Shown: positions 1 through 47,662, counted from the first letter of the stretch. The stretch is 56,516 nt of DNA from a virus (IMGVR_UViG_3300037803_000024:1-56516); one strand, 5' to 3'. Notes: generated from the letters alone by a model not told the origin. Translations and numbers: made by a program.

Positions 1-127
1 GCTTTTCAAGCCCAACCTGCCGCAACTCGCCGGAAACGATGTCTTCCGTGTCCGTGGCGTCCAGCGGCCCGATGCGCCCCACGGTCTCCGTGTCCGTGTT
101 CCCGCTCGCCACCATCGCACCGCCTGC
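1..127. repeat. Terminal direct repeat (assembly overlap indicating a circular or circularly permuted genome)
   Basis: 1-127 is identical to 56390-56516, and an ORF reads through the junction. Confidence 0.95.
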
Positions 128-3965: not shown

Positions 3966-4295
3966 CTATCCAGTGCAGGGTGAACATGGCGTGACGCCAC
4001 CGCAGTCTGACGCCGCGCAGGAAAGACAGGTGTGCCACATCGTTGGCCCGCACGTCGGCATCCCACCGCATCCCGACTTAGGGCAGGTCCCCATCCCTGC
4101 GCAGGTGGCGAACGTCGGTTCTCCGCCGCCGCCGCAGGTGTCGGGGTCGCCTGAATACTGCACACATCCACCCCAACAGGTATCCTCCAGAGCGCCGGTC
4201 GCGTGCGCTCCTACCGTGCCCGTGCCGTAGACTGCCAACGTGTTGAACAACTCCACGCGAAGGGTGTCCACGTCCAGCCTTAGCTTCGCGGCCAT
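3966..4295 (-). CDS. Cys-rich RiPP (lanthipeptide-like) precursor peptide A
   Basis: Leader KLRLDVDTLRVELF...GTVGAH; core with 12 Cys and many Thr-Cys pairs; GGAGGG RBS. Confidence 0.8.
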   Translation of the reverse strand: MAAKLRLDVDTLRVELFNTLAVYGTGTVGAHATGALEDTCWGGCVQYSGDPDTCGGGGEPTFATCAGMGTCPKSGCGGMPTCGPTMWHTCLSCAASDCGGVTPCSPCTG

Positions 4296-4330
4296 TGACC
4301 TACCCTCCGTTCAGGTGGGTATCCGGTTGC

Positions 4331-4370
4331 GGACAATCTGGAGGTTACTGTTTGTCCAACGCGCGGTCAA
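4331..4370 (-). promoter_or_regulatory. Promoter and operator for peptide A
   Basis: TTGACC-17-TAACCT (4370-4342) overlapped by inverted repeat GGACAA-N15-TTGTCC (4331-4357). Confidence 0.55.
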
Positions 4371-4665
4371 TGATCTAGGGGATCTAAGAATCTACTTCCC
4401 ATTCCTCAACGGCTGGACTCGTGGTGAACGTCGCGGCGTAATCTCGCGCAGCTATTTCAGTCGAGAATACGCCAAGAATCTGACCACCGATGCTGTCCCT
4501 ATCGTCCTCGGCTGGAGAGCCCACGATCCAGACGATCAGTTTGCGGGCGCTCATCTGCGCATCCATCCGGTGAAGGCGTCCACCACTCGCGTGCAGGCGT
4601 CCAGCACGGCACAGACAATCCGCTCCCATAGCGGCAGGCGCGGCGGTTCGAAGTCTGCTCTGAAG

Positions 4666-4881
4666 TCAGTCACGTTGCGCTCGCTTCCATACACAGGTGT
4701 CGGCGTGCATGTCAAAGGAGAACTCTCCGCAGTAAAAGCACTCTAACTCTTCTACGGCGGCGTTCCACTTCCAAGGTTCGCTACTTCGGATGAATTGCAG
4801 GGCGTCGTATCCAGTGAGCGGCCACGTGTGATCCCGCTCCGGCGTTACGGAGTGCCGATACTCGTCTGACGAGTCGTCCAT
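4666..4881 (-). CDS. Hypothetical protein (CxxC...H...C)
   Basis: Coupled to the MuF stop (TAATG overlap). Confidence 0.5.
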   Translation of the reverse strand: MDDSSDEYRHSVTPERDHTWPLTGYDALQFIRSSEPWKWNAAVEELECFYCGEFSFDMHADTCVWKRAQRD

Positions 4882-5495
4882 TATCTATACTCCCAGCCGC
4901 ATCGGCACCTACTTCTGCAATCCCGCTCCCCGATCTCCGTCTGCCCCGGATCGTTGATTGGTCCCCAGCCGCGTGCAGCGGCTTCAATGCAGCCTTGGCA
5001 CGAATCGCCGGAGTGACGGATACTGCGCCGCTCCGTGTTGCCGCGTACCAGCATCTCCGCCTTTTCGATGCGGTGGAACAGGGGTCTGCCCGCGTTCGCA
5101 TAAAGCTGTGAGCGACTGTTTACCGTGCCGTTCAGCGGCTGTTTCCCCGTCGCTACGTCGCGCATGAAGCCGCGCAGGTATTTGTACTGATCCTGCACGT
5201 AGCGCCCGACGCGCCCCAAGTCCGCTTCCGTCATCTGCGCCCATCCGCCCTTCGCCGCCGCGCCGCTGTAGACGGAGACAACCTTGACTTCGCGGCGCAT
5301 CCTGACTTCCCACGTAATCAGGTCGATGGAGCCGGAGCGCAGTTGGTTCGCCAGCACGTCCATGCGCTTGCCTGCGGCTTCCAGGGCAGCATCAAGGTAG
5401 GCACGGACGCGGGCAGGTGGCACGAAGGCGCCAGTTGGCCCACGGTAGCGACCTGCGGCGCGATCCCAGCGGAAAGGAGGGCGCTTATCAGTCAC
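4881..5495 (-). CDS. Minor head/head morphogenesis protein (MuF-like)
   Basis: C-terminal SCQGC...G...IGERDCRSRCRCGWEY signature; lies between the portal and scaffold genes. Confidence 0.75.
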   Translation of the reverse strand: MTDKRPPFRWDRAAGRYRGPTGAFVPPARVRAYLDAALEAAGKRMDVLANQLRSGSIDLITWEVRMRREVKVVSVYSGAAAKGGWAQMTEADLGRVGRYVQDQYKYLRGFMRDVATGKQPLNGTVNSRSQLYANAGRPLFHRIEKAEMLVRGNTERRSIRHSGDSCQGCIEAAARGWGPINDPGQTEIGERDCRSRCRCGWEYR

Positions 5496-6582
5496 GCTTG
5501 CTCAACTCCCATCCTGACCAATCCCTGCGTTGTCCCTGCGCTTTTACAAGGTCCGAAGGGAACCAGCGTCCGTCTCGCGAGATGTTGTCTGCCATTCGTT
5601 CCATCATCAACATCGCCGTCCTGTAGGTAACCTGCAAAACTCTTTGCAACTCAAGGACCGGCACGGCATCCTTGCTTGTAAAGAGGAGCCAGAATGCGTG
5701 CGCCCACTTGTGCAAGGGAATGGGGGAGTCCTCAAATACTGAACCCGTTTTCATCGTGTACTGGTACCCACAGCCCTTGCAGCGCAAACGATAGTTCTCC
5801 TGCCTGCCGCCCGCCCGGCTCATCATTTGATACACGTCCCGCGAACCGCAGCCGATACAGACATAGCCATCGGGCCAGCGCTTTGCTTCAAAGAAATTCA
5901 CGGCCGCCGATTCGTCGCGGCACGCCAGAGGTAGGCTACCCCGCTCCGCCATTTCTTCCGGAGTCACGCATTTGGGCCAGCGTCGCCCACGAGTAATAAC
6001 CGTGAGCCCCTGCTTGCTGGTTTCCACGCGCCAGCGCCATTGATTCACTCCGCGGCCCGTGCGCAGCATCGTTCGCAGGTCGTTGCGCCACTTTTCAACG
6101 CTTGAAGCGCTAGCAGGCGGGAGTAGCGAAACTCTACCCGGTACGGCGCAAGCCAAGCGCGTTACAGCGGAGTATTTTCCGTCTCCGGAGAATACGTAGG
6201 CATCGGGCACCATCTCTGCGAGAATCTTGGTGACAGTCACTCGCTTGATGCCGGTGAAAATCGACGCCTCTTCAATAGGTACGCCGTCTACCAGAAACAT
6301 CTTGCCGATCTTCGCGCGATCCTCAAACGGGACCTGATCGGTCACGCGCAGATAGGCCGCACTCACCCCAAAGCCATCCAGCGACGCCCGCCCATCGCCG
6401 TCGAACGAGCGCGGTAGCCGATGTTCCACGGCAACGTCTGCGTCGTCAGATAGCATCAGATGGAATGTACAGAGTTCCTCACCGTCAGGAATGAGCATTC
6501 CGCATTCGGCACAGACCGACGAGTCAAGTTCATGGGAATGCTCACGCAACCACTCGTCTGCGCTGATATTAGCAAGACTCAT
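5488..6582 (-). CDS. Fusion protein ending in an IS1595-family Zn-ribbon/HTH region, with no DDE domain
   Basis: DESAAVNFFEAKRWPDGYVCIGCGS...CKGCGYQYTMKTGSVFEDSPIPLHKW...ELQRVLQVTYRTAMLM; N-terminal CAECG...CTFH; start MSLANIS at 6582. Confidence 0.7.
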   Translation of the reverse strand: MSLANISADEWLREHSHELDSSVCAECGMLIPDGEELCTFHLMLSDDADVAVEHRLPRSFDGDGRASLDGFGVSAAYLRVTDQVPFEDRAKIGKMFLVDGVPIEEASIFTGIKRVTVTKILAEMVPDAYVFSGDGKYSAVTRLACAVPGRVSLLPPASASSVEKWRNDLRTMLRTGRGVNQWRWRVETSKQGLTVITRGRRWPKCVTPEEMAERGSLPLACRDESAAVNFFEAKRWPDGYVCIGCGSRDVYQMMSRAGGRQENYRLRCKGCGYQYTMKTGSVFEDSPIPLHKWAHAFWLLFTSKDAVPVLELQRVLQVTYRTAMLMMERMADNISRDGRWFPSDLVKAQGQRRDWSGWELSKRD

Positions 6583-6788
6583 AGAGTTTCTCCCGCCTGT
6601 TTCTTGTGTCCGTGTCCAATGTGAAAGTACCCGCAGTGAGGACAGGTATACACCTCCAGTCCATCGGCTGCACCCTTGCGCTTCCGGATGCCCTCGCGCT
6701 GCGCCTTGGCCCCTGCGCGGGAGGTGTGCTGCTGCTTGCCCGTCTTGTGGCACCAGCCGACGACTGGAGACCAGCGGCGCGTTTTCAT
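6579..6788 (-). CDS. Small Zn-finger phage protein
   Basis: C..TGK...TSRAGA...VYTCPHCGYFHIG; ATGA overlaps with neighbours. Confidence 0.6.
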   Translation of the reverse strand: MKTRRWSPVVGWCHKTGKQQHTSRAGAKAQREGIRKRKGAADGLEVYTCPHCGYFHIGHGHKKQAGETL

Positions 6789-7156
6789 GCCACCCCCAAC
6801 TCCTTCGCTGGGCCCTTCTGTCTGCTGGCGTAAGACTGCGGCTGCACCTGAAAGTCAACCTCCACACCCATGAGCTCAGATGCCGCGAGAGCCAGCCCTG
6901 CGCATTCTGCGGCCCAACTCCAGCGCGCTTCACTCCAGTCTCCAGTATCGCCCTCACGTTTCCACGCCGCGGGCGACAGCCCGTAGCGCTGCGCAAATGC
7001 GCTATCCGCGAGCACGAGGCGTACATCCCAATCTCGGGGCGTGCGGTCGGGATTAGCTATAGCACTGCCGACGAGATAGACACTGCACGGGCCGTACTTG
7101 CGCTGAACACCAGACGTCCAGGTGTTGAGCGCCCCGATAGCCACGTCGTCACGCAT
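6785..7156 (-). CDS. Minimal nucleotidyltransferase (Pol-beta superfamily)
   Basis: YLVGS...RDWDVR...VDFQ gives the GS, DxD and third Asp motifs. Confidence 0.65.
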   Translation of the reverse strand: MRDDVAIGALNTWTSGVQRKYGPCSVYLVGSAIANPDRTPRDWDVRLVLADSAFAQRYGLSPAAWKREGDTGDWSEARWSWAAECAGLALAASELMGVEVDFQVQPQSYASRQKGPAKELGVA

Positions 7157-7367
7157 CCGCCAACTCTGACGCGAGAGAGGTGAGAGCGGCGGCGCGTTCA
7201 AGCGCCAGTCCACGGACGACAGCCTTCCAGCCCTTTGGAGGTGGGCGGCGGGCATCCGACGCAAGGCGCGTCTGGCTCACCGTGTTTTCCGAAACGCCAA
7301 AGGCTTCCGCCATCGTTTTGATGATCGGCGGCCCCGCCAGCACGTCCACGGCCTTGTTGTAGTCCAT
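7149..7367 (-). CDS. Small HTH regulator (Cro-like)
   Basis: TMAEAFGVSENTVSQTR; divergent from the plus-strand operon at 7466. Confidence 0.6.
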   Translation of the reverse strand: MDYNKAVDVLAGPPIIKTMAEAFGVSENTVSQTRLASDARRPPPKGWKAVVRGLALERAAALTSLASELADA

Positions 7368-7382
7368 CCTTCTCCCGCTCGC

Positions 7383-7424
7383 GTAAGATACTCTTGACAC
7401 GATCCGCCGCCCACTGTATCTTAC
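7383..7424 (+). promoter_or_regulatory. sigma70-like promoter bracketed by an operator-like inverted repeat
   Basis: TTGACA (7394)-17-TATCTT (7417); GTAAGATA (7383-7390)/TATCTTAC (7417-7424). Confidence 0.75.
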
Positions 7425-7465
7425 ATACCAGAGAGACGGAGCGCAACCCTGGCGGGGCGGAGACG

Positions 7466-8383
7466 ATGGAAGCGGTTCAGGTGGCATCGGTAACGGCAGC
7501 CCTGCACGCGGCGGGCCTGACCGCAACCCAAATCGTGCGGCGAGTGCGACAGGGCGGCTACAACGCGCGTCAGTTGAACGCATACCGCGTGGCCGTCTTC
7601 TTCACGCACTACGGAGAGGGACGGGCGGAGAAGGAAGCCGCCGCAGAGCGCGTCCTGTGCGCCGCCGGGTACGCTGTTTCGCGGCCTTTCCAGAACAGCA
7701 ACGGCGTGCTGTTCGTGACTCACTCGCGTTAACCGGATACGACCTTTGAGCGCCGAGACCACCTGTCCTACCTGCGGGCGCCCAGCCAGCAGCCCATACC
7801 GCATCTTCAACTCGTCGGGCGAGGTGGAGGAGGGGTGCGTGGACGCGGCCCACGACGGCCAGTTGCCAGCCCTCTCCGCATCCGCCCGCTGGCACAGCCG
7901 AGACGCGGCCGTGCGCATCCGGAAGGAAGCAGAGCGTATCCGCGGAACCAGAGACGCGGTGACCGATGCCTAAGCCTACCTACAAGATCGTGGAGCGCGA
8001 TAAGCGCTACTTCGTCTTCGGCTACGTCGGCGCGGGAAAGTACATGCAGTGCTCGAAAGGCTACGGGCGGCGTGCGGACGCGGTCCAGCGGATGCGCCTC
8101 AACTGCGGTTCAGAGCGTGCCGCCAAGGCGGAGTTGCAGGACTGGAACGGCGCCTCCATCAACGACTGACCACGGGAGCGAGAGAGCCATGCAAGGAATC
8201 GTGGTTGAGACGCGCGAGGTGTCGCCCAACCACTTCCGTGCGGAAGTGGTGGATGGGCCCGTGTGGGCGCTGCGACACCTATCACTGGAGACCGAAAGCC
8301 GCATCGGCGCCTACTCCACCCTGCGCGACGAGTTGCGCGCGAAGGGTGGCCCCAATCTCTCTTTTATCCACGTACCGGAGTAA
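7466..8383 (+). other. Plus-strand operon of small hypothetical genes (7466-7732, 7746-7973, 7966-8169, 8189-8383)
   Basis: Tightly packed ORFs downstream of the promoter at 7394. Confidence 0.55.
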
Positions 8384-8387
8384 GCCG

Positions 8388-8603
8388 ATGAACACCCGTG
8401 ACGTACCCGCCTGTATGCGCACCCCCGTGGACGTTGCGAGAGCGTATGAGCACGGCTACGGCTTCGGCAACGCTGGGCTCTCACGCGACACTAATCCGCA
8501 CTTCCCGCACGGCGAGACGCGACGGCTGGCGGTGGCGTGGGATGAAGGCTGGTGCGATGGCAGGAACGCTTTGGAATCCTCTATCAATGGAGCGGGCAAG
8601 TGA
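8388..8603 (+). CDS. Rmf-like small protein
   Basis: AYEHGY..G.AGLSRDTNPH...AWDEGWCDG pattern. Confidence 0.45.
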   Translation: MNTRDVPACMRTPVDVARAYEHGYGFGNAGLSRDTNPHFPHGETRRLAVAWDEGWCDGRNALESSINGAGK

Positions 8604-8860
8604 GCGAGAACGTGGGAGACACCGGCCGCCAATTGGCGGATCGCATCGACGCGCTGGCGGTGGAGATGCAGTTAATCACTGGCGCCGTCACCGCACACGT
8701 CGCGGCGTCCACTGGTTACACCGACGCCGCAGGGTTGGGCTACATGGTGAAGCAGGGCGGTGATCTGATTCTGCAACTCAGAGAGTATGCCAGACGCGTA
8801 CGAGAGGGCGACTACAAGCCCGCTACCGTGTGGCGCAAGCCCTCGGCCACGCGCGGCTAA
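8600..8860 (+). CDS. Hypothetical protein
   Basis: GTGA overlap with the previous gene. Confidence 0.45.
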   Translation: MSENVGDTGRQLADRIDALAVEMQLITGAVTAHVAASTGYTDAAGLGYMVKQGGDLILQLREYARRVREGDYKPATVWRKPSATRG

Positions 8861-9027
8861 CCGCCGTCCTCACCCTCGTATTCCGGAGCATCCAAGAGCG
8901 CCCTGCCGTCAGGTGGGGCGTCTTGCTGCCATGCTGCGGCTGCGTCTTCGCGGTCTGCTGGCGTGATCTGCGCGAGTGTGGCGGCCTGTTCGTCGGTCAG
9001 TTCGGGGGGAATCTGCTGGAGTTTCAT
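8857..9027 (-). CDS. Small acidic protein downstream of the portal (not in the ORF track)
   Basis: MKLQQIPPELTDEQAATLAQITPADREDAAAAWQQDAPPDGRALLDAPEYEGEDGG; ATGA-coupled. Confidence 0.5.
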   Translation of the reverse strand: MKLQQIPPELTDEQAATLAQITPADREDAAAAWQQDAPPDGRALLDAPEYEGEDGG

Positions 9028-9466
9028 GGAATTAGCCTTTCGCGATAGGCGGCTATCTTGGCGTCTGCTTCCGGGTCACCCATCCACCGCAGCACCAGAT
9101 CGTTAAGCGCTACGTCGCACGCGAGGCACACGCCCCGGTAGCGGTTGCCATCGGCGCATACGTTCCACTGAAAACGCGACGGCTCGCCGCAGCGGGCGCA
9201 CGGGACGCGCAGAATGCCGCGCTTCGTGTAGGGTCTTCGCCTGCCGCCTGTCATTCTTTGTCCACGGGCCATTCAATCGTCCGCACAGGCTCAAACAACA
9301 TTTCTTGGATAGACGCTTCTAGAGAAGCGGTGTCCAGACGCGCCGTGGAGAACGCCCAATACTCGCCGTCGTTCTCCACCCGAATCACCATAAGGCCATG
9401 TTTCTCACACAGAGCGCGGTAATCGGTCAGGAACGCCGCCTTGTCTCTTTCTTCGGCCTTGCTCAT
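9024..9466 (-). other. Two small hypothetical genes (9024-9254 Cys-rich; 9251-9466)
   Basis: Translationally coupled to the portal stop and to each other. Confidence 0.5.
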
Positions 9467-11292
9467 CACTGCGTCAGGTTGGGAGGGCCGTCGGTGCGCA
9501 GCGCCGCATCGGCCTGCTGCGCGGTGTAGCCCATTTCGTTCATCAGGAACCACTTCCTGTCCACGCCGCTGCCCGCTGCGCCTTCAAACATGGTCCAGCG
9601 CCGCTCCTGCGTCGCCAGCGTGCGCTCCTGTGCGATCCTGGCACGCGTGGCGGCTACGTCCTGCACCCCCAACCGCGCGGTGCCTTCCTCTGCATCCAGA
9701 AGCTCGCCCTGCACCATCTCCAACGTGACGCGTTGCGCGTCGCCTGACGGGCTTCCAGCGCTCGGATGGCTCTGGACCTGCACGGCGTAGTTGTCAGCGA
9801 AGTCCGGCGCTTCCGAGCCTGCCAGCCAATCAGCCGCAATTGTCACCCACGTGAGCCCTGCGGCGAGTGCGCCGTCCACGGCTTCGGCCACGCCCTTAAT
9901 GTCGTTGAAGAATCCCGCGCGTGCCTGCTCGTACGCCTCTCCGCTGGCCTCTGCCGTGCTGCCAGTCAATCCGCTGCGCCGATGCCCCTGACGACAGGCG
10001 TAGCGCATCATCATCGTGTGGGCGTCTGCACCTTCGATGATGTTGGCGACCGGCGATGGCTCGTGGTAATCGACGGACGGAGACGTGAGGCCGAACGTAG
10101 GATCGCCTTGCGTGTTCGCGCCGGTCTGGTAGGGGAAGCCGTTCAGGTGGCGAATCAGGTCAGGACCCAGCGCGGCGGGTGCGGGGTGGAAGTATTGGAG
10201 CACATCGCCCACCTCGCGAGTCGTTGGTACGGAGACGCCCACTGGCGCGGTCAGTTCCCACGTCCCGTCTTCCTGCGCGTTAATCTCCGTGCGCTGCCCG
10301 TAGCCATGCGACTGGATCAGTCGCGTGAGCGAGGTTGCGTCGAGGTCGAGCGCGGCTTGGATACGCACCACGGCAGGCGTCAGGATGCAGCCCACGTCGG
10401 CGCTTACGATGGGTAGCCAGCCGCCCCATGGGTAGCGCGTCTCTGCGGTAGGCGCGCCCTCTGTCAGCAGACGCAGCACGGTGATGCCGCCTTCGTTGAA
10501 CCACGTCTCCGCGCACTTCCTGTTCTGTGAATCATCGAACAGGAATACGCCCGTCTTTTCGTGTGTATCGGGGTCGATGTAGACGGCGCAGGTATTGGGC
10601 GGCGGAGCAACGACGCGGATGTGCCGGAGTGCTGCTGCGCGGTCCGGCTGTTTCGGAATCCGCTGCTCCGTGCCGACGACTTCGCCAACCTCGTTCCTGA
10701 TGGCGACTTCCTGCGTGCGGCTTGCCGGGTTGAAGAAGAAGCGCAAGCACGCCTGCCCGCTCTTGGACATGGAGCCCTGCGCCACCATGCCCTTGACGCC
10801 GGTGGGGTTCCGGATGTTGCTGCCGCCCCACAGGCCCTCGGTCGTCCACCACGCCGACAGATCGCGCTCCCACTCGTCAACCGCGCGCTGCTGTTCGTCG
10901 GATAGGCCGCGCACGCCCTTCTCGTCTGGCTCGCCCGCGGGCTCCTTTGCACCGACCGTGATGCTGGCCTCGTTCGCGCACGCGCCGTCCACGCGTTCCG
11001 TAAGGCACGTGTACATCTCCGGATTGGGCGTCAGGAGGCGCGTCAGGTCCGACTTGGCCTTGGGGGTCAACTGGCCGTTTACGTCGAAGCCAGCGCCAAT
11101 CCATGGCTTGCCGTCCTGAAGATGGTCCGCCAGAATCACGTAGGCGTAGACGCTGGCCGCGTGCGCCGGGTCAAAGCCGCCGGGGAAATTGGCCGTGGCA
11201 GCCGCCAGCGCGTGGTCATACGTCCACTCCCGCCGGTCACGTGGCGGGGTGGGGGTTGAGGCGCTGCTCGTGGTGGGCGTGGCTAGGGCCAT
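9466..11292 (-). CDS. Portal protein (divergent)
   Basis: 608 aa; the only large ORF between TerL and MuF; C-terminal SGEA...ELLDAEEGTARLG resembles portal motifs. Confidence 0.65.
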   Translation of the reverse strand: MALATPTTSSASTPTPPRDRREWTYDHALAAATANFPGGFDPAHAASVYAYVILADHLQDGKPWIGAGFDVNGQLTPKAKSDLTRLLTPNPEMYTCLTERVDGACANEASITVGAKEPAGEPDEKGVRGLSDEQQRAVDEWERDLSAWWTTEGLWGGSNIRNPTGVKGMVAQGSMSKSGQACLRFFFNPASRTQEVAIRNEVGEVVGTEQRIPKQPDRAAALRHIRVVAPPPNTCAVYIDPDTHEKTGVFLFDDSQNRKCAETWFNEGGITVLRLLTEGAPTAETRYPWGGWLPIVSADVGCILTPAVVRIQAALDLDATSLTRLIQSHGYGQRTEINAQEDGTWELTAPVGVSVPTTREVGDVLQYFHPAPAALGPDLIRHLNGFPYQTGANTQGDPTFGLTSPSVDYHEPSPVANIIEGADAHTMMMRYACRQGHRRSGLTGSTAEASGEAYEQARAGFFNDIKGVAEAVDGALAAGLTWVTIAADWLAGSEAPDFADNYAVQVQSHPSAGSPSGDAQRVTLEMVQGELLDAEEGTARLGVQDVAATRARIAQERTLATQERRWTMFEGAAGSGVDRKWFLMNEMGYTAQQADAALRTDGPPNLTQ

Positions 11293-11342
11293 GCGGCGGC
11301 GAGGATTCGAGGGAGCGGGCGAAGAAAGCCGTTCAGGTGTGA

Positions 11343-11371
11343 ACTATAGGCGCTGTCGAAGGCAGGTGCAA
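11343..11371 (-). promoter_or_regulatory. sigma70-like promoter for the portal gene
   Basis: TTGCAC-17-TATAGT. Confidence 0.65.
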
Positions 11372-11410
11372 TGGGCGAGGCGCCCGGTCAAAGACGCCTC
11401 GCCGGACAGA

Positions 11411-11635
11411 TTACATGCAAATGGGGCAGTACGTCCAACCCGAAAAGCAGGTGTCCTGACCGTAACACGTCTTGCAGCTAGCAACTTCCGTCGGAGGCGG
11501 GGCGGGACAGGCGCACCCGGTGTACTCCACCGACTCCTCGCGCCCGCGCACCGTGCCCGCCGCTTCCGGCACGTGGCGCACGGTGTCGAAGCTCTCGACG
11601 CACAGCATCTCGAGGTCCAGCTTCAGCTTGTGCAC
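11411..11635 (-). CDS. Cys-rich RiPP-like precursor peptide B
   Basis: Leader KLKLDLEMLCVESFDT...GTVRGR; core with 7 Cys. Confidence 0.8.
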   Translation of the reverse strand: MHKLKLDLEMLCVESFDTVRHVPEAAGTVRGREESVEYTGCACPAPPPTEVASCKTCYGQDTCFSGWTYCPICM

Positions 11636-11687
11636 TCGCTACCCCTTTTGGTTTAAGAGTTATAGTTGTTGCTGCGGCGCGTGTGGA

Positions 11688-11993
11688 TTAGGCGCAGCAG
11701 TACTGCTTGATGCCGGTACACGAGAAGGCGCAGACCGACGGCACCACCGGGCATGAGCAGTCCGACAACTCCAGCCGGGTGACCCCACAGTCGCCGCACG
11801 CGGTCTTGGGACACGTACCCATCCCGTCACACGTGGCCCACGTGCGATCGGCGCAGTAGTTCTGGCCGGTGTTGTCCGTGTCACATGGACCGCAGTCCGT
11901 GGCCGCGGTGGAATCGTGCCCGATCACGCCGCGTCTGCCCGCTTCGAACGTCTCGACAGTCAGGCTGTCGAGGTCCAGTTACATCTTGCGCAT
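11688..11993 (-). pseudogene. Cys-rich RiPP-like precursor peptide C with in-frame TAA at codon 5
   Basis: ATG CGC AAG ATG TAA CTG GAC CTC... = MRKM*LDLDSLTVETFEAGRRGVIGH, followed by a 13-Cys core; TAA at 11981-11979. Confidence 0.8.
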
Positions 11994-12029
11994 CAGGGTT
12001 TCTTCCCCCCTTGGTGAAGGGAAAACATT

Positions 12030-12059
12030 CCGGCCGCGGGGGGCTTTCCCCGCGGCCGG
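12030..12059 (-). terminator. 12-bp GC hairpin between peptides D and C
   Basis: CCGGCCGCGGGG/CCCCGCGGCCGG, followed by AATGTTTT on the minus strand. Confidence 0.55.
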
Positions 12060-12065
12060 GCGATG

Positions 12066-12392
12066 TCAGCAGTTGGGTCCGTTGCAGGCGGTGATGTCGC
12101 ACGAGGGGCCACCGCAGGCGGTCATGCCGCAGGTGGAGTGGTCGCACGTGTCGCGCGGGCCGTAGTTCGTGATGGCGCACCCATCCCAGCAGGTGTTCTG
12201 CTCCGGGTGCGAGCAGTAGCCTGTCATGGGGCAGAACTGCGTGTTCTCGGCGCAGTAGGCATCGCCAGACTCGGTCACCGTGCAATCAGTCGTGCTGTCG
12301 TGCCCACGCACCGTGCCCTCACGCGGCTCACCCCGACCGGCGACGAACGACTCCACCTTCAGATCGCCCAACTCCAGCCTCATCTTCCGCAT
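12066..12392 (-). CDS. Cys-rich RiPP-like precursor peptide D
   Basis: Leader MRKMRLELGDLKVESFV...GTVRGH; 12 Cys with Cx4C periodicity at the C-terminus; AAGGAGG RBS. Confidence 0.82.
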   Translation of the reverse strand: MRKMRLELGDLKVESFVAGRGEPREGTVRGHDSTTDCTVTESGDAYCAENTQFCPMTGYCSHPEQNTCWDGCAITNYGPRDTCDHSTCGMTACGGPSCDITACNGPNC

Positions 12393-13161: not shown

Positions 13162-14673
13162 TTACCGCCGCACGGTGCGCGTAGTGGGGATGCCTGCCCA
13201 CGGGTTCACCGGCGTGCGGTTGCTCAGCATCAGTTCGGTGAAGAGCCACACGACAGCGTCAAGCCGGTTTGGCGACGGATCGCCAGGGGACCATGTGCAC
13301 TGCTCTCGTTCCAAGAGCGAGAAGTGCCCCGCGTGGTGCACCCTGCCGTCCTCGTAAAGCTTTTGCACGGGCTCCGCGCGAGTGAGCTTGCCACGGCTGG
13401 CGTGGATCAGCTTGACGCGGGGTGCCTTGGGCACGGTACCAATCGTGATCGCCACCATCTCGCCGCCGTTGTTGGCTTCTGCCACGAGCGCATCCGCGTT
13501 CCATTCGTTGTAGGCGTCAACGCTGGCCTGCGCCCACTTCTTCGGCCCGCCCGCCACGGTCGCGTCCCGCAAGAGCACACCGTGCACCACACCGGCGCGC
13601 TTTTCAATGCCGCCAACCATGATGCCCGCTTCATCATTTCCCTCTGTGGCGTTGGGATCGACGGCGATCACGATGCGGTAGAAGCGCCCTGTATCCTCCG
13701 GCGTCAGCGGCACTTCGCGAAACGGGTTGATGTCCCGCTCGCGCTGCCAGAGGCCGGATTCCGCCTCCGTTTCGTGCTGGGCCTCGCGCAGGAACGCGCC
13801 TCTGCCCCATTCGTTGATCTGCGCCTCGCACGTCGCGAGGTTCTGGCCTTCCCATGTGGCCGTTCCGCCCGTGATCCGCCAGCGCCGTGAGCCGTCTTCC
13901 CTGTCCTCGTGCTTCAGGGCCAGACCTAAGACGGCAGGCTCTTCGAACACCTCGCGGTCCAGCAGGAAGTCAGCCTTGCCTTCCGCAAGTTGGGTTGCTA
14001 TCGACAGATCGTGGATGCGGTTCTGAATGAACAGCACTGCGGCATCAGAGGCGCCAGCGGGCAGGATGGATTCGGTGATCGTTTCGATTTTCTTCTTGAT
14101 GACGGGCGGAGAATCGTGGCGGTCGTCCACGTCGTCAATTACAAACAGGTCGGGTCTGTCATCCCCCAGCTTCACACCGCGCGCAGCCGCATCCACCCCA
14201 AGCGCGAGCACGGAGAAACCGTTGGCGGCTCGGAGAATGTCCATGCGCCAGCCGATGGAGTTGCCGTAGCCATTGACGGCCCTGCGGATGCCCAGCGTCT
14301 CGAACCTGCTGGCGATGGCTTGGACGTGCTTGTTGGCCTGGTCCTGAGTGGCGCAGAGGTAAACGGCGAAGTTGCGGCTGCGCTTCACGCCCGCGCGCGT
14401 CACACCCAATTCTGCCGTGCTGCTCTTGGCTCCGCCACGCGGCCAGATTTCCACGTGGGCGGTGGGCTTTACGCCCGGCGTCAGCGCTTCGAACCATTCC
14501 CAAAGACGAATGTGCCGCGAGGCAAACGGTGCCTTCGCGGCCTGCGGGAATTTGCTGGTTACCCAGGTGCGCCAGTCGCCGCCGTCCTCAAATAGCCCGG
14601 AGAGCAGCGCGTCCATCTCTGCGCGCTCTTGCTCGCTCAAGTAGGGCAGCAACCCTATCAGCTCGTTCGTCAT
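13162..14673 (-). CDS. terL: Terminase large subunit
   Basis: Walker A WPRGGAKSS; Walker B FVIDDVDD; nuclease IAVDPN..D..G, EANNGG, SPNRLDA. Confidence 0.93.
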   Translation of the reverse strand: MTNELIGLLPYLSEQERAEMDALLSGLFEDGGDWRTWVTSKFPQAAKAPFASRHIRLWEWFEALTPGVKPTAHVEIWPRGGAKSSTAELGVTRAGVKRSRNFAVYLCATQDQANKHVQAIASRFETLGIRRAVNGYGNSIGWRMDILRAANGFSVLALGVDAAARGVKLGDDRPDLFVIDDVDDRHDSPPVIKKKIETITESILPAGASDAAVLFIQNRIHDLSIATQLAEGKADFLLDREVFEEPAVLGLALKHEDREDGSRRWRITGGTATWEGQNLATCEAQINEWGRGAFLREAQHETEAESGLWQRERDINPFREVPLTPEDTGRFYRIVIAVDPNATEGNDEAGIMVGGIEKRAGVVHGVLLRDATVAGGPKKWAQASVDAYNEWNADALVAEANNGGEMVAITIGTVPKAPRVKLIHASRGKLTRAEPVQKLYEDGRVHHAGHFSLLEREQCTWSPGDPSPNRLDAVVWLFTELMLSNRTPVNPWAGIPTTRTVRR

Positions 14674-21844: not shown

Positions 21845-22939
21845 TCAGTTCTTCAGGGCTTCGATGGCGGGGATGATGTCGGCGTTCTGAAGCACGTCGA
21901 GGGCGGTCCTGACCCTCTTCAGCACGGACCCGTAACGCTCCGCCTGCTGTCTCGCCTCGCGCCCCGTGGTCATCTCCTGCTGCAACCGCCCGTTCAACTG
22001 CGCGAACTTCGCCTGAAGGGCGATGATCTCCCGGTCCTTGTCCGTGCGGTTGAGGGAGTCGATGACACTGTTCAACTGGTCGATTTCCGCGTGAGCCCGC
22101 TCCAGTTCCGCTGCCACGTCAGGCGCGTCGTCGGGTGCCGGTCCCGGGGTGCGCTCGCGCTCCACGCGCTCCACGGCCTTGCGCGTGGCCCTGCCGTTGC
22201 CGTTGCTGCCGGAGAGCTTCACCGCGGCGTCCACGATCTCCGTGGCCGCGTCGCCATGCTTCTTGACGATGCGCACGGCCTCCGTCGCCGCTACCTGCCC
22301 CTGCTGGACGCGCTGGCGCACCGCTTCTGGCAACTCCAGCACATCCATCAATCCGTTGATCGTGCCCACGGTCCACCCGGATTCGGTGGCAATTTGCTCC
22401 GGCGACCAACCGAGATTGAGCAGCCGCTTGACGGTCTGCGCCTTCTCCATCCGGGTAAGCGGCTTGCCGGAGTTGCGCACCAGCAGCGAGAGCACGCGGT
22501 CCGCGTCGTTAGACCCCTGCGGCTCCGTGCGCACCGGCACGGTCATTACCGGCGCGTTCAGATTGTTGATGGCGTACCACGCGCCGCGCAGGCGGCTTTC
22601 GCCATCGGACAGCCAGAGCTTTCCGCCCTCCCAATAGACGGTGAGCGGCTGCTGGACGCCGCGTGCGGCGATGGAGTGCGCGAGGTCAAGGACGTGCTCC
22701 TGATTCTCCAGCAGGGAGAAGTCGCGCGTGTTCCAGCCCGGTTTGATGTGGATGTCGAACGGGGAGACGGAGAAGGTGTCGGTGCGCCCATGCATCAGGC
22801 TCTTGACGCCGTGCAGGCCAGCATTCTTGGCCTTCTTGCGCTCCGCTTCCTCCGTCACGCGGCGGGCGGCTTCGCTGGCGGGCTGGCGTGCGGCGTCCAC
22901 GTCCAGCGGGAACGAGGGTAGAACGGCAGCGTCTGTCAT
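21845..22939 (-). CDS. ParB-like N-terminal domain protein with HTH and coiled coil
   Basis: GWNTR...LAHSIAARGVQQPLTV...LSDGESRLR...GWSPEQIATESG. Confidence 0.75.
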   Translation of the reverse strand: MTDAAVLPSFPLDVDAARQPASEAARRVTEEAERKKAKNAGLHGVKSLMHGRTDTFSVSPFDIHIKPGWNTRDFSLLENQEHVLDLAHSIAARGVQQPLTVYWEGGKLWLSDGESRLRGAWYAINNLNAPVMTVPVRTEPQGSNDADRVLSLLVRNSGKPLTRMEKAQTVKRLLNLGWSPEQIATESGWTVGTINGLMDVLELPEAVRQRVQQGQVAATEAVRIVKKHGDAATEIVDAAVKLSGSNGNGRATRKAVERVERERTPGPAPDDAPDVAAELERAHAEIDQLNSVIDSLNRTDKDREIIALQAKFAQLNGRLQQEMTTGREARQQAERYGSVLKRVRTALDVLQNADIIPAIEALKN

Positions 22940-23158
22940 GGCGGGCTTTCTGGAGAAAAGGAAAGCGCCCCCGTGCGGTACACACTTGGAGAAACCCTTC
23001 TCCCCCGCCGAGAAGAGGGGAGTCGGCAAGCGTGACGACACGGGGGCGCAGAGGTCCCTCGGAAGTCTCTCGGCTTATTTCAATCGGCGTTTCTCACGCG
23101 CCGGTCGCGGTACTTGGCGACACTTCAACCTATCCTGCGCCAGACCCCAGCGCAAGCC

Positions 23159-27613: not shown

Positions 27614-28036
27614 GGCAGTGCGCGCAGTTCGGTGAGCATCATGGATACGTCTGCGTCGTACAGGTAGACAGGGGAAGTTTCCTCCATCCCGTAATCGGTG
27701 CAGACGCAGTATACCCAGCACGGGTACGCGGTGGGCGCCTCGTTGCGCCACCGATCCTTGTATGTGTCGAAGCCATCCATGCTGGTCGCCCAGCGCCGAT
27801 AGGCTCGCTCGTTCTTCAGCAGTTTCATCGTCCCGCCTTTCTGGCGACCCTTGCCCGTTCGGTGTCGAGAAACTCCGCGTACTCGTAGCTCAGAATCGCG
27901 CTCAGAGGCGCGTCAGGTGCAGGTCTGGCCTTCCGCCTTCCCCTGCGCACCGCGAAACCTAGCAGGCCAGCCAGCAGAGCTAGCAGCAACGAGGATGCGG
28001 TGTGCCGGAAGCGGCGGCGATGCGTGAGGGGAGTGC

Positions 28037-28714
28037 TCATGTGGGCGCCCCTCCTTCGACGGAAGTATCATCTTCCCAAGTCCATTGATCGTCAAGCAGC
28101 GCAGCGAGAGCACGGATGCGGTCGTGCGTCCAGTGCAGTCCCGCCTTATGCGCGGGAATCCAGCCCGGCTCCGCACTCAGAAACTCAAACGCGGCGTGGA
28201 GGTTTCCCCGTGCCTCGCAAACCCTGAATGCCGCCGTGGAACCGGACGGGAAATGCGGGTCTGGAATCACCTTGGGTACGCGTTTCTTCAGGGGATAGTG
28301 GCGAGCCGCGTCACCCCTCACTCGCTGTAGCCATTCGCTGTATACGCTTCCCGTGTCCCTGTGGCGGCTAAAGTCGTGCTCGTGCGCCGCCGCCTCGTAC
28401 GCCTCGCGTCGGATGCGCTGCTCCCGGTTGTGCTCTTCCCAATCCCGTTCTTCGTTCATCACAACCACGGGTTCCCATGTGGCAGCAGAGGGCAGCGCTC
28501 CTAGCCGCTGGCCCGGCGCGGCTAAAGGTGGACGCGGGAGCTCCTCCAGTGCGGCGCAAGCGAGGTCGTGTGTCCGCTGCGCCTCTCCCTTCGTAAGGAA
28601 GGGCCAATCGCCGATATTGAAGTGCCAGACGTGCATGGCGAGCGCGTGTGCTTCGTCCGCAGTCAGCGGGCCTGTGTTCTCGTCTGAAGTTGTCTCTAAC
28701 ACGTCGCACCTCAC
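28037..28714 (-). CDS. Hypothetical protein
   Basis: 225-aa ORF coupled to the recombinase gene. Confidence 0.5.
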   Translation of the reverse strand: MRCDVLETTSDENTGPLTADEAHALAMHVWHFNIGDWPFLTKGEAQRTHDLACAALEELPRPPLAAPGQRLGALPSAATWEPVVVMNEERDWEEHNREQRIRREAYEAAAHEHDFSRHRDTGSVYSEWLQRVRGDAARHYPLKKRVPKVIPDPHFPSGSTAAFRVCEARGNLHAAFEFLSAEPGWIPAHKAGLHWTHDRIRALAALLDDQWTWEDDTSVEGGAPT

Positions 28715-29349
28715 GCTCGGTTCAGGGGTTGAAGCTCCTCTCCGGTGGAATCAGCCACGGCGCGAGCGAAGGTCAGGGCGGCGGCAGGATCGCGCTTCAG
28801 GGTTGACCACGCTTTCTTCGTGGCGGGCTTCAGCGGTCGCGACTCTCCGTCCAACGCCAGCATCACATCGTCTGCACAACGGGCGGCGGTTTCGCGGATG
28901 TAGTCGAGCGCGCTGCGGTGCGCTTCCTGTTCGCGGTATCTGCTGTACGCGCCCGTCTTGTCGTACAGGTTCAGCCCCATCCCGAACAGCGCCAACGTGC
29001 GCTTTAGCGCCTGTGCGAAAGAATTGGTTTCGGCGCTGCCGAAGTCGCGCACCTTGCCGTCATCGTCGGCATTGCCGTGCTCCTCATCCTCGCTGCCGAA
29101 GTTCACCCGCGTGATGCCGAAGATCGTCACTGGCAGACCCATGATGAGCTTGCCGCCGACTTCCTTCAGGATGGGTTCCCCCATGCTCCAGCCCGGCCCA
29201 ACGAGGTCGTTCAGGCGCATGACGTAAATATGCCAGCCGACGAACGAAACGCTGCTGCCGCCCTTCGTCTTTCGCTGGACAAACTCCGCGGGGAAGGGCT
29301 CAGCCAACGCGGCCTCCAACTTCGGGCACCAATCGCTGAAGCAAGCCAC
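28711..29349 (-). CDS. Rad52/Sak-family single-strand annealing protein
   Basis: YVMRLNDLVGPGWS...SAETNSFAQALKRTLALFGMGLNLYD. Confidence 0.8.
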   Translation of the reverse strand: MACFSDWCPKLEAALAEPFPAEFVQRKTKGGSSVSFVGWHIYVMRLNDLVGPGWSMGEPILKEVGGKLIMGLPVTIFGITRVNFGSEDEEHGNADDDGKVRDFGSAETNSFAQALKRTLALFGMGLNLYDKTGAYSRYREQEAHRSALDYIRETAARCADDVMLALDGESRPLKPATKKAWSTLKRDPAAALTFARAVADSTGEELQPLNRA

Positions 29350-46285: not shown

Positions 46286-47662
46286 TCAGGTTGCGTAGTA
46301 AGGTATCTTGCGGGACGTACCGGCGATATTCACCACGAGAAACCCTACCGGGTTGGCTGGGAGCGTGTTGGCACCAGCCGTAGCGGTGGTCGCCGTCGTT
46401 GGCGCGGTCAGCGTCAGATTGGTCCCTATCGTGAGCGCCCCTGACAACGCCACTGCGCCGGTAGAGCGTGTTATCGTTATGGCCGTGAACAGGGCGGCGC
46501 CAGCATCGTCGCGAACTTGCACCTCCACATTCGAGCCAGCGTTGGAGCCGGATTCCGCAGTGCTGTTCACTCGCACAACCATGCGGTTGGAGCCTGAAGT
46601 ACGAAACACCACGTCCCGGTTGGTTCCGGCAGCACCGTCAATAACCAGAGCAGCCACGGTCGGTGCGTTGGACCACGCCGGTGCGGTTGTATTGTGCGTC
46701 AGGATGGACGCCGACGCAGGCTTCGCGAGATTGGAGAACGCATCTGCGCCCGTGCTGTACAGCATCCCGCCCGCCGTGCTGGTGACGCCCGCCAATGCGG
46801 TCAGCGTCGCGTCGAGTGGCTGCGCGCCGATGGTGGAGAGCACAGTAGCTGCGTCTGCATCATCCAGGAACGAGCGGGCGAAGACGCTGAGATCAAACAG
46901 CGCCGCCGCGCCAGAGCCCGTGAAGTAGATACCCTTGTTGGCGGCCGATGTGAGACCGGCGATGGCGGTAAGTTCCGCGTCCAACGGTTGCGCGAGGGCG
47001 CCCACGGCAGACGCGAAATCGCTGATCGTCGCCGCCAACTGCATCCCGGTGTGATGGGAGCGGGCGAGCAAATACGCCGAGTCCTGACTGGCGGCCCCAA
47101 GATAATGCGCCGTCAGGTTGTCCACGCGGTCAGTCCCCACGACAACGAAAGGAACCGTAGATGACTGGAAAGAGGCGGCAGCGTTGAAAATCTGCGACAG
47201 CGCCCACGAGCCGGATGAATCCAGCCGCCCCAGCCCGGATGCGTGGTAGCCATCTACCTTGTCCGCATCCAGGTTGGTGCACAGCAGCGCAGATGCCGGG
47301 ATATTGGTGAGTGGCGCGTGGGCAGAGAGCAGGGACGCGAAGTTGATTCCAAGCGCCCCCGGCAACACTGCGCTCCCTGCTATCAGGTTGCCATCGGAGG
47401 AGATGGAGCCTACCGTGCTGATGCCTCCGGAGAGGTCCAGCGAGCCGGTAACGTGAGACCCATCAAGAAACCCCGTCGCGTTCTCCAGCGCGAGATAGTA
47501 CGCGGCAGGGAAGCCGCCGACACCCGCACCAGAGCCAGCGGACGCGTCCAGCCACGCCTTCGCGTCTGGCAGAGGGCCAAAGTCCAGCCCCGCGCCGCAG
47601 ACGATCTCGCCATCGAAGACGATGCGCTTGGTGCCGTCCGTGTTTACGAGTGTAGCCGTCAT
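46286..47662 (-). CDS. Tail fibre / receptor-binding protein
   Basis: NLDADKVDG, ARSHHTGMQLAATISDF, repeated AQPLDA.LTA.AG, C-terminal RKIPYY. Confidence 0.8.
   Translation of the reverse strand: MTATLVNTDGTKRIVFDGEIVCGAGLDFGPLPDAKAWLDASAGSGAGVGGFPAAYYLALENATGFLDGSHVTGSLDLSGGISTVGSISSDGNLIAGSAVLPGALGINFASLLSAHAPLTNIPASALLCTNLDADKVDGYHASGLGRLDSSGSWALSQIFNAAASFQSSTVPFVVVGTDRVDNLTAHYLGAASQDSAYLLARSHHTGMQLAATISDFASAVGALAQPLDAELTAIAGLTSAANKGIYFTGSGAAALFDLSVFARSFLDDADAATVLSTIGAQPLDATLTALAGVTSTAGGMLYSTGADAFSNLAKPASASILTHNTTAPAWSNAPTVAALVIDGAAGTNRDVVFRTSGSNRMVVRVNSTAESGSNAGSNVEVQVRDDAGAALFTAITITRSTGAVALSGALTIGTNLTLTAPTTATTATAGANTLPANPVGFLVVNIAGTSRKIPYYAT

What the first reader, a model, noticed from the sequence alone, without database searches (positions are those of the whole stretch)
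3966..12392. Phage carries four RiPP (lanthipeptide-like) precursor genes but no recognisable maturase
Seen: four short genes (3966-4295, 11411-11635, 11688-11993, 12066-12392) share a leader (KLRLDVDTLRVELF / KLKLDLEMLCVESF / KM*LDLDSLTVETF / KMRLELGDLKVESF) ending GTVGAH / GTVRGR / GVIGH / GTVRGH. Their cores are variable, with 12, 7, 13 and 12 Cys and many Ser/Thr. Known: a conserved leader plus a variable Cys/Ser/Thr core is RiPP precursor architecture, and the LxLxDLxVxSF leader resembles pinensin-family lanthipeptide leaders, which I recall being highly expanded in Longimicrobium-like Gemmatimonadota. Seen: I recognise no LanB/C/M/KC, radical SAM, YcaO, protease or exporter in this apparently complete genome. 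Inference: the phage feeds its own substrates to host maturases (making antimicrobials, signals or metal binders), or uses them as decoys that titrate a host RiPP pathway, possibly an anti-phage one.
Basis: partly seen in the sequence, partly recalled or inferred. Interest (0 to 1): 0.92.

Follow-up and report, generated by a model that had tools for sequence, protein, structure and literature searches.

The report
Phage-borne orphan lanthipeptide precursor genes
A complete soil phage carries four small genes (one interrupted by a stop codon) that look like raw material for ring-forming lanthipeptides, yet it has none of the enzymes to finish them, while its likely host genus, Longimicrobium, has those enzymes and more than a hundred similar genes per genome.

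Summary
The window is a complete 56.5-kb tailed-phage genome. Four minus-strand genes (3966-4295, 11411-11635, 11688-11993, 12066-12392) share an N-terminal leader, K-L-R-L-D-V-D-x-L-x-V-E-S-F ... G-T-V-R-G-H. Their long acidic cores hold 12, 7, 13 and 12 Cys, with Ser+Thr never fewer than Cys. The third gene has an in-frame TAA at codon 5.

The leader belongs to a family with 115-150 profile matches per genome in five Longimicrobium MAGs. Part of that family passes NCBIfam's pinensin-leader model NF038180; the phage copies stay below its cut-off. Those MAGs encode a class I pathway: split LanB, LanC, ABC transporter and S8 protease. One short precursor with the same leader box lies directly beside LanC.

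The phage has no LanB, LanC, transporter or protease homologue. Four other viral records carry 1-4 such genes and likewise lack LanB and LanC. Three of the four belong to related phages, two of them close relatives.

One phage copy has a core as constrained as the terminase gene (pN/pS 0.10). At the terminase-side site, whole cores are swapped between close relatives, with one breakpoint inside the leader.

Best reading: orphan LanA substrates matured in trans by host LanBC. Modification and biological role are untested. I rate it a new variant of a known kind.

The parts
3966..4295 (-). ORF1: 109-aa precursor-like gene with leader MAAKLRLDVDTLRVELF...GTGTVGAH and a 79-aa core holding 12 Cys. 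It lies between a 204-aa phrog_24776 protein (4881-5495) and the genes upstream of the major head protein.
   Evidence: (E = 5e-18). The orthologue in related phage L015 is 86% identical, with core pN/pS 0.10.
11411..11635 (-). ORF2: 74-aa precursor-like gene with a GTG start, leader MHKLKLDLEMLCVESF...AAGTVRGR and a 42-aa core holding 7 Cys.
   Evidence: (E = 1.3e-16).
11688..11993 (-). ORF3: precursor-like gene interrupted by an in-frame TAA at codon 5 (11979-11981). It is otherwise intact, with a ribosome-binding stretch upstream and a 75-aa core holding 13 Cys. It is a likely recent nonsense pseudogene or an assembly error.
   Evidence: E = 3e-9 with 1 TAA inside.
12066..12392 (-). ORF4: 108-aa precursor-like gene with leader MRKMRLELGDLKVESF...REGTVRGH and a 77-aa core holding 12 Cys. 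It is the only copy that touches NF038180.
   Evidence: 18.4 bits, cut-off 24; 20 bits.
12030..12059 (-). Terminator-like hairpin (12 G-C pairs followed by AATGTTTTCC) starting 7 nt after the ORF4 stop codon.
   Evidence: The total count of terminator-like sites in the scanned region is not above the shuffles (6 found against a mean of 6.2).
11396..12351 (-). Swappable cassette running from codon 15 of the ORF4 leader to just past the ORF2 stop. Close relatives replace it with about 290-298 nt that encode a single, different core.
   Evidence: homology to L015 ends at 12351 and resumes at 11404. (a contig of run X2 skips 11396-12351, with 298 other letters between).
13162..14673 (-). Terminase large subunit, the upstream neighbour of the three-gene cluster.
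   Evidence: Terminase_6C at 1.8e-12; phrog_38 at 8.7e-46.
9466..11292 (-). 608-aa protein directly downstream of the cluster. I call it a portal from position and size only; no family or solved-structure match was found.
   Evidence: no hits. It is conserved in L015 (91%) and L016 (78-79%).

Best explanation
The four genes are phage-borne orphan class I lanthipeptide precursors (LanA-type substrates). They belong to the leader family that is massively expanded in Longimicrobium (Gemmatimonadota), the probable host genus.

Proposed mechanism, with each step marked:
1. The genes are transcribed with the late structural genes, because they share strand and module and each has its own ribosome-binding stretch. 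This is inferred.
2. The N-terminal box L-x-L-D-x-x-x-L-x-V-E-S-F docks the peptide onto the host's split LanB. This is inferred from the same box in a LanC-adjacent host precursor, plus a weak complex prediction.
3. Host LanB dehydrates Ser and Thr, and host LanC closes thioether rings onto the 7-13 Cys. This is inferred and not shown.
4. The highly cross-linked, acidic 42-79-residue products leave the cell by host LanT/LanP or simply at lysis, and act outside the producing cell. This is speculative.

What the sequences do show is selection on the products. The ORF1 core is as constrained as the terminase gene. The cluster next to the terminase gene is a cassette site where whole cores are exchanged, with one breakpoint inside the conserved leader-coding DNA.
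For: Family and host:
- The A2 profile gives 115, 140, 150, 128 and 124 matches at E <= 0.01 in five Longimicrobium MAGs, with only 150 of 240-328 candidates scored per genome.
- All 11 confirmed genome-contig loci for the pattern M[RK]KLRLDVD are Longimicrobium sp. records, out of 15 pattern matches.
- Only 2 of 121 genomes sampled across the phylum match at E <= 1e-5.
- 31 of the 33 nucleotide matches between phage bases 1-20000 and those five MAGs fall on the leader-coding parts of ORF1, ORF2 and ORF4.

RiPP identity:
- NF038180 leader_pinensin matches 12 of 38 family members at E <= 0.01, best 1.1e-6.
- It matches 25-31 places per host genome, many above its 24-bit cut-off and overlapping A2 matches.

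Host machinery:
- All 5 MAGs have LanC, and all 5 have LanB-N.
- Locus L012 encodes LanB-N (1080 aa), a separate Lant_dehydr_C protein (411 aa), LanC, an ABC exporter and an S8 protease.
- A family precursor lies 4.8 kb downstream on the same strand.
- In L014 a short precursor with the box LNLDALRVESF lies directly downstream of LanC.
- A split LanB is the pinensin arrangement, according to passages read in PMC7268733.

Chemistry is permitted: Ser+Thr is at least equal to Cys in all four cores.

No phage maturase was found.

Recurrence: 13 matches in 5 viral records. The three complete genomes hold 4, 4 and 2. None of the 5 has LanC or LanB-N. In L015, L016 and L053 the genes sit at the same junction between the terminase gene and the 608-aa gene.

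Selection, window against L015:
- ORF1 core: 20.5 synonymous and 6.5 nonsynonymous differences, pN/pS 0.10.
- ORF1 leader: pN/pS 0.29.
- For comparison, TerL 0.11, the 608-aa protein 0.19, and the major head protein 0.01.

Complex prediction: Longimicrobium LanB residues 1-960 with ORF4 residues 1-38 scored ipSAE 0.51 (median of 3 runs), and the best of 3 controls scored 0.00. The tool's verdict was 'weak support'.
- The runs agree in at least 41% of contacts, and the partner's pLDDT is at least 50.
- The pass mark was reached by 58 of 80 solved complexes and 2 of 110 mismatched pairs.
- At 0.60 or under it was reached by only 7 of the 80 solved complexes and by both mismatches.
- A LanB-leader complex has been solved (recalled: NisB with NisA), so the pass may only reflect that likeness.
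Against: - No modification, expression or binding has been measured.
- None of the four phage leaders reaches the NF038180 cut-off. Three give no hit at all.
- Two leaders depart from the family's GTVRGH tail: ORF1 has GTVGAH and ORF3 has GVIGH.
- One copy carries a nonsense codon, and the L015 orthologue of ORF1 carries a 1-nt deletion. Both fit relaxed selection on some copies.
- The host is assigned only by gene family and by nucleotide similarity in the leaders. No CRISPR spacer or prophage link was found. Only 1 of 71 genomes of the host family has even a distant TerL match, 44% over 156 residues.
- No tyrosine or serine recombinase was found in any of 4 viral records. The phage may therefore be lytic, which leaves little time for host enzymes to process the peptides, and gives no lysogen to benefit.
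- The LanB used in the complex prediction is a stand-in from a MAG, not from the true host.
Confidence: 0.65

Rival explanations
1. Decoy substrates. The phage peptides bind host LanB/LanC through the shared leader and block maturation of the host's own lanthipeptides, some of which might be anti-phage. The products themselves would have no function.
For: - The phage has no maturase and shares the leader box.
- The host family is very large and of unknown role.
- Lanthipeptides with anti-phage action are reported from actinomycetes. I saw the abstract of bioRxiv 10.1101/2024.06.26.600839 in listings and passages of the review PMC12360287.
- The genes lie among late genes, where large amounts could be made.
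Against: - A decoy needs only its leader. Yet the ORF1 core has 0 nonsynonymous against 8 synonymous differences before the indel, and pN/pS 0.10 overall, whereas the leader is less constrained at 0.29.
- Phage cores are long (median 75 aa, n = 11) and keep Ser+Thr at or above Cys.
- The reported anti-phage lanthipeptides belong to a different phylum, and nothing ties the Longimicrobium family to defence.
Confidence: 0.12
2. Hitchhikers. With hundreds of near-identical leader sequences in the host chromosome, the phage repeatedly picks up precursor genes by recombination. They are neutral cargo on the way to decay.
For: - ORF3 carries a nonsense codon, and the L015 orthologue of ORF1 carries a frameshift.
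- Copy number and content at the terminase-side site differ between phages that are 87-91% alike.
- A swap breakpoint lies inside the leader-coding DNA, which is 71-92% identical to host copies.
Against: - The genes occupy the same junction in the window phage and in three of the four other viral records. That includes L053, whose TerL segments are only about 60-67% identical.
- All three complete genomes carry 2-4 copies.
- The ORF1 core is under purifying selection equal to TerL.
- The ORF1 core has no close counterpart in five host genomes. The best match is 36-50% identity including the leader, against 86% in L015 and 79% and 69-70% in metagenome proteins P0004 and P0005.
Confidence: 0.13
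3. Unmodified Cys-rich peptides (disulfide-rich or metal-binding) that only resemble RiPP precursors.
For: - Cores contain 15-17% Cys.
- No modification has been shown.
- The weak Pfam and NCBIfam side hits are to Cys-rich or metal-related families: SPRING1 and UreE in 1 of 38 members.
Against: - The conserved N-terminal extension matches a curated lanthipeptide leader model in many family members.
- A family member lies beside LanC.
- Ser+Thr tracks Cys in the cores.
- The side hits are all below their cut-offs.
Confidence: 0.06

Closest known systems
Pinensin-family class I lanthipeptide precursors (NCBIfam NF038180; pinensins of Chitinophaga pinensis)
   Same: - The leader box is related: NF038180 hits ORF4 and many family members.
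- The core is rich in Cys, Ser and Thr.
- The host pathway has a split LanB plus LanC, the arrangement that PMC7268733 describes for pinensin.
   Different: - The phage copies score below the model's cut-off.
- The cores are 42-79 residues with 7-13 Cys. I recall pinensins as roughly 22-residue peptides; that figure comes from memory, not from a call.
- The genes sit in a phage with no biosynthetic neighbours.
- The family is confined to a Gemmatimonadota lineage rather than Bacteroidota.
Prochlorosins (many ProcA precursors served in trans by one ProcM in marine cyanobacteria; recalled, not read here)
   Same: - A few enzymes serve very many dispersed precursors that share a conserved leader and have hypervariable cores. 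Here there are more than 100 precursors against one LanB-N and 1-4 LanC per genome.
- Precursors work away from the enzyme genes.
   Different: - The pathway is class I (LanB plus LanC), not class II (LanM).
- The leader is not of the Nif11/NHLP type; no such model hit the four ORFs.
- Here some precursors are carried by a virus. My search for 'cyanophage' with 'prochlorosin' found no relevant paper.
Phage-borne complete bacteriocin clusters, such as sublancin on prophage SPbeta
   Same: A phage carries a ribosomal peptide precursor whose product needs post-translational modification (passage read in bioRxiv 10.1101/2020.10.01.322628).
   Different: SPbeta carries the precursor together with modification enzymes, immunity and a transporter. 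This phage carries precursors only, and no integrase was found.

Membership tests
Pinensin-family lanthipeptide precursor (NCBIfam NF038180 leader_pinensin) | The leader scores at or above the curated 24-bit cut-off. | tested here: not met
   ORF4 scores 18.4 bits and 20.0 bits. ORF1, ORF2 and ORF3 give no hit at E <= 10. Homologues do pass: 12 of 38 match at E <= 0.01, and many host copies score 24-37 bits.
Pinensin-family lanthipeptide precursor (NCBIfam NF038180 leader_pinensin) | A core with Cys plus enough Ser/Thr to form lanthionine rings. | tested here: met
   Cys 12, 7, 13 and 12 against Ser+Thr 16, 8, 15 and 17.
Pinensin-family lanthipeptide precursor (NCBIfam NF038180 leader_pinensin) | The gene is encoded beside class I enzymes (split LanB, LanC). 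| tested here: not met
   The phage has none. Host relatives do meet this feature: L014 has a precursor directly downstream of LanC, and L012 has one on the same strand as LanB-N, LanB-C, LanC, ABC and S8.
Pinensin-family lanthipeptide precursor (NCBIfam NF038180 leader_pinensin) | Dehydrated residues and thioether rings in the mature peptide. | not testable with these tools
   This needs mass spectrometry after co-expression.
Longimicrobium-expanded leader family (profile A2, built here) | A full-length match to the leader-plus-core profile. | tested here: met
   E = 5e-18, 1.3e-16 and 7e-18 for ORF1, ORF2 and ORF4, and 3e-9 for ORF3 read through its TAA. The first three are in the profile by construction. 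ORF3 and the copies in L015, L016, L041 and L053 are not, and they also match.
Prochlorosin-type precursors (Nif11/NHLP leader, class II LanM) | A Nif11- or NHLP-type leader. | tested here: not met
   No NCBIfam or Pfam leader model other than NF038180 hit any of the four ORFs at E <= 10. That such models are in those libraries is recalled, not checked.
Phage-encoded complete RiPP or bacteriocin gene cluster | Precursor together with modification enzyme, transporter or immunity genes on the phage. | tested here: not met
   Searches found none. 39 of my 79 called genes, mostly under 130 aa, were not scanned against families.

The most novel reading that the evidence does not exclude
These phages carry a new kind of auxiliary gene: substrate-only RiPP genes. 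They plug phage-specific, unusually long and heavily cross-linked cores into the host's promiscuous LanBC line, so the products are released with the burst.

The conserved leader-coding DNA would double as a portable recombination arm. Through it, phage and host, with its hundreds of copies, would trade core cassettes. Phages would then be both users and diversifiers or vectors of the Longimicrobium lanthipeptide repertoire.
Probability: 0.3. Interest if true: 0.85.

Novelty: new variant of a known kind. Interest (0 to 1): 0.72.

Why it matters
RiPP precursors normally travel with their enzymes, or at least share a chromosome with them. A virus that carries only the substrates, and does so across several related genomes with signs of selection on the cores, would be a clear case of a phage borrowing a host natural-product pathway.

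It would make three open questions testable:
- What do hyper-expanded lanthipeptide libraries do? The question is unresolved for prochlorosins as well.
- Do phages use or spread such peptides?
- How promiscuous is a single split-LanB/LanC pair that faces hundreds of cores of up to 80 residues?

The finding also gives a host handle (Longimicrobium) for an uncultured soil phage group. In addition, it supplies a set of natural, very Cys-rich substrates for lanthipeptide engineering.

Tried and rejected
- **Alignments too variable for back-translation.** A 5-row alignment worked.
- **Metagenome scans.** The scan with the ORF1 group gave 199 pattern matches and no relative. The scan with the 608-aa protein returned only the contig already held as L016. 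I therefore could not learn the genomic context of the ORF1-like metagenome proteins P0004, P0005 and P0006, or of the ORF4-like P0039. Whether those are phage or bacterial genes stays open.
- **Viral scans.** The exact leader peptide pattern found nothing. A looser DNA motif gave 38 stretches, of which 4 held true family members.
- **The 608-aa protein.** It has no Pfam, PHROG or PDB sequence match. 'Portal' is a guess from position.
- **Close phage relatives.** INPHARED holds none; all 296 TerL matches are below 60% identity.
- **Sequencing runs.** No RNA holder was listed. The only full holder is a soil metagenome run that may be the source of this DNA, so neither expression nor the reality of the TAA in ORF3 could be checked.
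- **Parts of the cluster without cover in run X2.** I do not read these as absence.
- **Family-wide search.** I set the threshold too strict (E <= 1e-15; 15 of 71 genomes matched). That figure understates how many genomes of the host family hold the gene family.
- **Core lengths.** Phage cores have a median of 75 aa and 11 Cys (n = 11). Host cores have a median of 26 aa and 4 Cys (n = 30). Mann-Whitney p = 8e-6 and 1.2e-5.
  - The host sample is only what lay in 12 fetched loci, and much of it is tandem arrays.
  - ORF3 and the fourth copy of G008 were dropped by the filter.
  - The L015 frameshifted copy was measured in its shifted frame.
  - Many host matches span the whole 86-position profile, so long host cores exist. 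I treat this comparison as a lead only.
- **Literature.** Eight searches found no paper on phage-borne precursor-only lanthipeptide genes, or on the Longimicrobium expansion. Subscription journals and supplements are not covered. Supplements were closed and I did not ask for them. The supplementary family tables of PMC7268733 (its 'family I 17') might list such precursors.

Full report
**What is there.** The window is a complete phage genome of 56,516 nt with a 127-nt terminal direct repeat. The collection classes it as direct terminal repeats with completeness 100. GC content is about 64%, and nearly all genes lie on the minus strand. Recognisable genes include:
- terminase large subunit (13162-14673), major head protein (933-2030), tape measure (51071-53722) and tail fibre (46286-47707);
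- helicase, primase and a ParB-like protein;
- 5'-3' exonuclease, a Rad52-like protein, Mu Gam, RNA ligase, an HD-domain protein and an M15/SH3 endolysin;
- a DNA methyltransferase.

No tRNA genes were found.

**The observation.** Three are intact. ORF3 has a ribosome-binding stretch and an ATG start, then a TAA at codon 5. The alignment shows a shared leader of about 30 residues followed by divergent cores. Cys counts are 12, 7, 13 and 12, and Ser+Thr is at least equal to Cys in each core. The cores are acidic. A profile of the family finds these four frames in the window and no other below E = 0.1.

**What family it is.**
- A protein search with the four-gene alignment returned 40 proteins. 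All have the same leader (consensus M-x-K-L-R-L-D-V-D-x-L-x-V-E-S-F-x-T ... A-G-T-V-R-G-H) and unrelated Cys-rich cores. Two are named as Longimicrobium proteins.
- NCBIfam's pinensin-leader model NF038180 touches ORF4 below its cut-off (18.4 bits against 24). It matches 12 of 38 family members at E <= 0.01.
- A scan of one genome per prokaryote species with the leader peptide pattern gave 15 pattern matches, of which 11 were confirmed. All 11 are in Longimicrobium sp. MAGs.
- NF038180 gives 25-31 matches in each of four of them, many above the cut-off and lying inside profile matches.
- Across 121 genomes sampled over the phylum, only 2 match at E <= 1e-5, and both belong to the same family-level group.

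**The enzymes are in the host lineage, not in the phage.**
- All five MAGs have LanC (1-4 matches each) and one LanB N-terminal domain gene.
- Locus L012 encodes, on one strand: LanB-N (1080 aa), a separate Lant_dehydr_C protein (411 aa), LanC (681 aa), an ABC exporter (727 aa) and an S8 protease (502 aa). A family precursor lies further downstream.
- In L014 a short precursor with the box LNLDALRVESF, but without the GTVRGH tail, lies directly downstream of LanC.
- A split LanB is the arrangement described for pinensin (passages of PMC7268733).
- The phage has none of these, and 40 scanned ORFs show no other maturase.

**It recurs in phages.**
- Two close relatives, L015 and L016, have a 608-aa protein 91% and 78% identical to the window's. 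L015 carries one precursor just upstream of that gene and an ORF1 orthologue downstream. L016 carries one precursor upstream.
- A motif scan of viral contigs found two further complete genomes. G009 (51.6 kb) has two precursors between its TerL and 608-aa homologues. G008 (54.8 kb) has four, three of them clustered a few kb from homologues of the window's lysis-region genes.
- In all, 5 viral records hold 13 copies, and none of the 5 has LanC or LanB-N.

**Signs of selection and of cassette exchange.**
- Between the window and L015 the ORF1 core shows 20.5 synonymous and 6.5 nonsynonymous differences (pN/pS 0.10). Before the indel the count is 8 synonymous and 0 nonsynonymous. The leader is looser, at 0.29.
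- For comparison, TerL is 0.11, the 608-aa protein 0.19 and the major head protein 0.01.
- The L015 copy has a 1-nt deletion, yet the downstream codons still differ mostly at synonymous sites. The deletion is therefore either recent or an assembly error.
- At the terminase-side site, homology to L015 runs through the upstream region and the first 14 codons of ORF4, then stops at 12351. It resumes at 11404, just past the ORF2 stop. Between those points the window has three genes where L015 has one different core.
- A contig from a second soil study shows the same replacement: 954 nt skipped, with 298 other letters between.
- The only nucleotide similarity between phage bases 1-20000 and the host MAGs lies almost entirely in the leader-coding stretches (31 of 33 matches, 71-92% identity).

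Together these results suggest that the conserved leader DNA serves as the recombination point for core exchange.

**How it most likely works.** The best-supported reading is substrate-only lanthipeptide genes served in trans by host LanB and LanC.
- Shown: family membership by profile, host-lineage enzymes, a shared leader box with a LanC-adjacent precursor, absence of phage enzymes, recurrence in related phages, and constraint on a core.
- Inferred: binding, modification, release and any biological effect.
- A complex prediction of Longimicrobium LanB (residues 1-960) with the ORF4 leader gave 0.51 against 0.00 for the best control. The tool rated this 'weak support'; such scores were reached by few solved complexes and by both mismatches that passed. 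It may also echo the solved NisB-leader complex, which I recall rather than checked.
- No tyrosine or serine recombinase was found in any of 4 viral records, and almost no TerL relatives occur in 71 genomes of the host family. The phage may therefore be lytic. If so, the peptides would be made late and released at lysis.

**Rivals.** The three rivals are decoys that block host enzymes, neutral hitchhikers, and unmodified Cys-rich peptides. Core conservation argues against the first two, and the leader evidence argues against the third. None is excluded.

**Novelty.** Known things are complete bacteriocin clusters on prophages (sublancin on SPbeta), in-trans precursor libraries in bacteria (prochlorosins, recalled) and host lanthipeptides that act against phages. 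Eight literature searches found no report of phages carrying only lanthipeptide precursors, nor of the Longimicrobium expansion. These searches do not cover subscription journals or supplements. I rate it a new variant of a known kind, with interest 0.72.

Noticed in passing
window 1-127 and 56390-56516: An exact 127-nt terminal direct repeat, so the window is a complete genome of 56,389 unique bases.
   Followed up: yes
window 5488-7026 (-): A long ORF inside the head-gene module. Its C-terminal part matches the IS1595-type transposase zinc ribbon (PF12760, 2.3e-7) and phrog_25593. The true start is unclear.
   Followed up: no
window 7394-8860 (+): A small block of plus-strand genes lies between the 608-aa gene and the ORF1 site, in an otherwise minus-strand genome. 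A promoter-like site lies at 7394-7422.
   Followed up: no
L015 17450-17900: The ORF1 orthologue in the 91%-related phage has a 1-nt deletion after ...GMGTC, but keeps a synonymous-biased substitution pattern downstream. This points to an assembly error or a very recent frameshift.
   Followed up: partly
L014 4905-8171 (-), L012 14902-18144 (-), L013 2409-5789 (-): The Longimicrobium LanB-N proteins carry a low-complexity insert rich in D-A-D-T-V repeats at about residues 770-850. It splits the Pfam Lant_dehydr_N match in two.
   Followed up: no
L014 1147-1665 (-): The precursor directly downstream of host LanC has the leader box (LNLDALRVESF). It lacks the GTVRGH tail and has a short core with 4 Cys, unlike the dispersed family.
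   Followed up: partly
L003, L008, L009, L002 (Longimicrobium MAG loci): Host precursors often lie in tandem arrays of 5-6 genes with short cores. Many end in a shared ...P-T-D-C-P-C-T-P motif.
   Followed up: no
G008 (record of L041), 27849-29299 (-) and 6621-6851 (+): In this complete 54.8-kb phage, three precursors lie a few kb from homologues of the window's lysis-region genes rather than at the terminase junction. A fourth lies on the other strand elsewhere.
   Followed up: partly
window 21845-23041 (-), whole genome: A ParB-like gene is present, but no tyrosine or serine recombinase was found in this phage or its complete relatives. The lifestyle (lytic or plasmid-like prophage) is unresolved.
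   Followed up: partly
phage copies versus host loci L001-L012: Phage-borne cores are much longer and richer in Cys than the host cores sampled (median 75 aa and 11 Cys against 26 aa and 4 Cys). The host sample is small and biased.
   Followed up: partly
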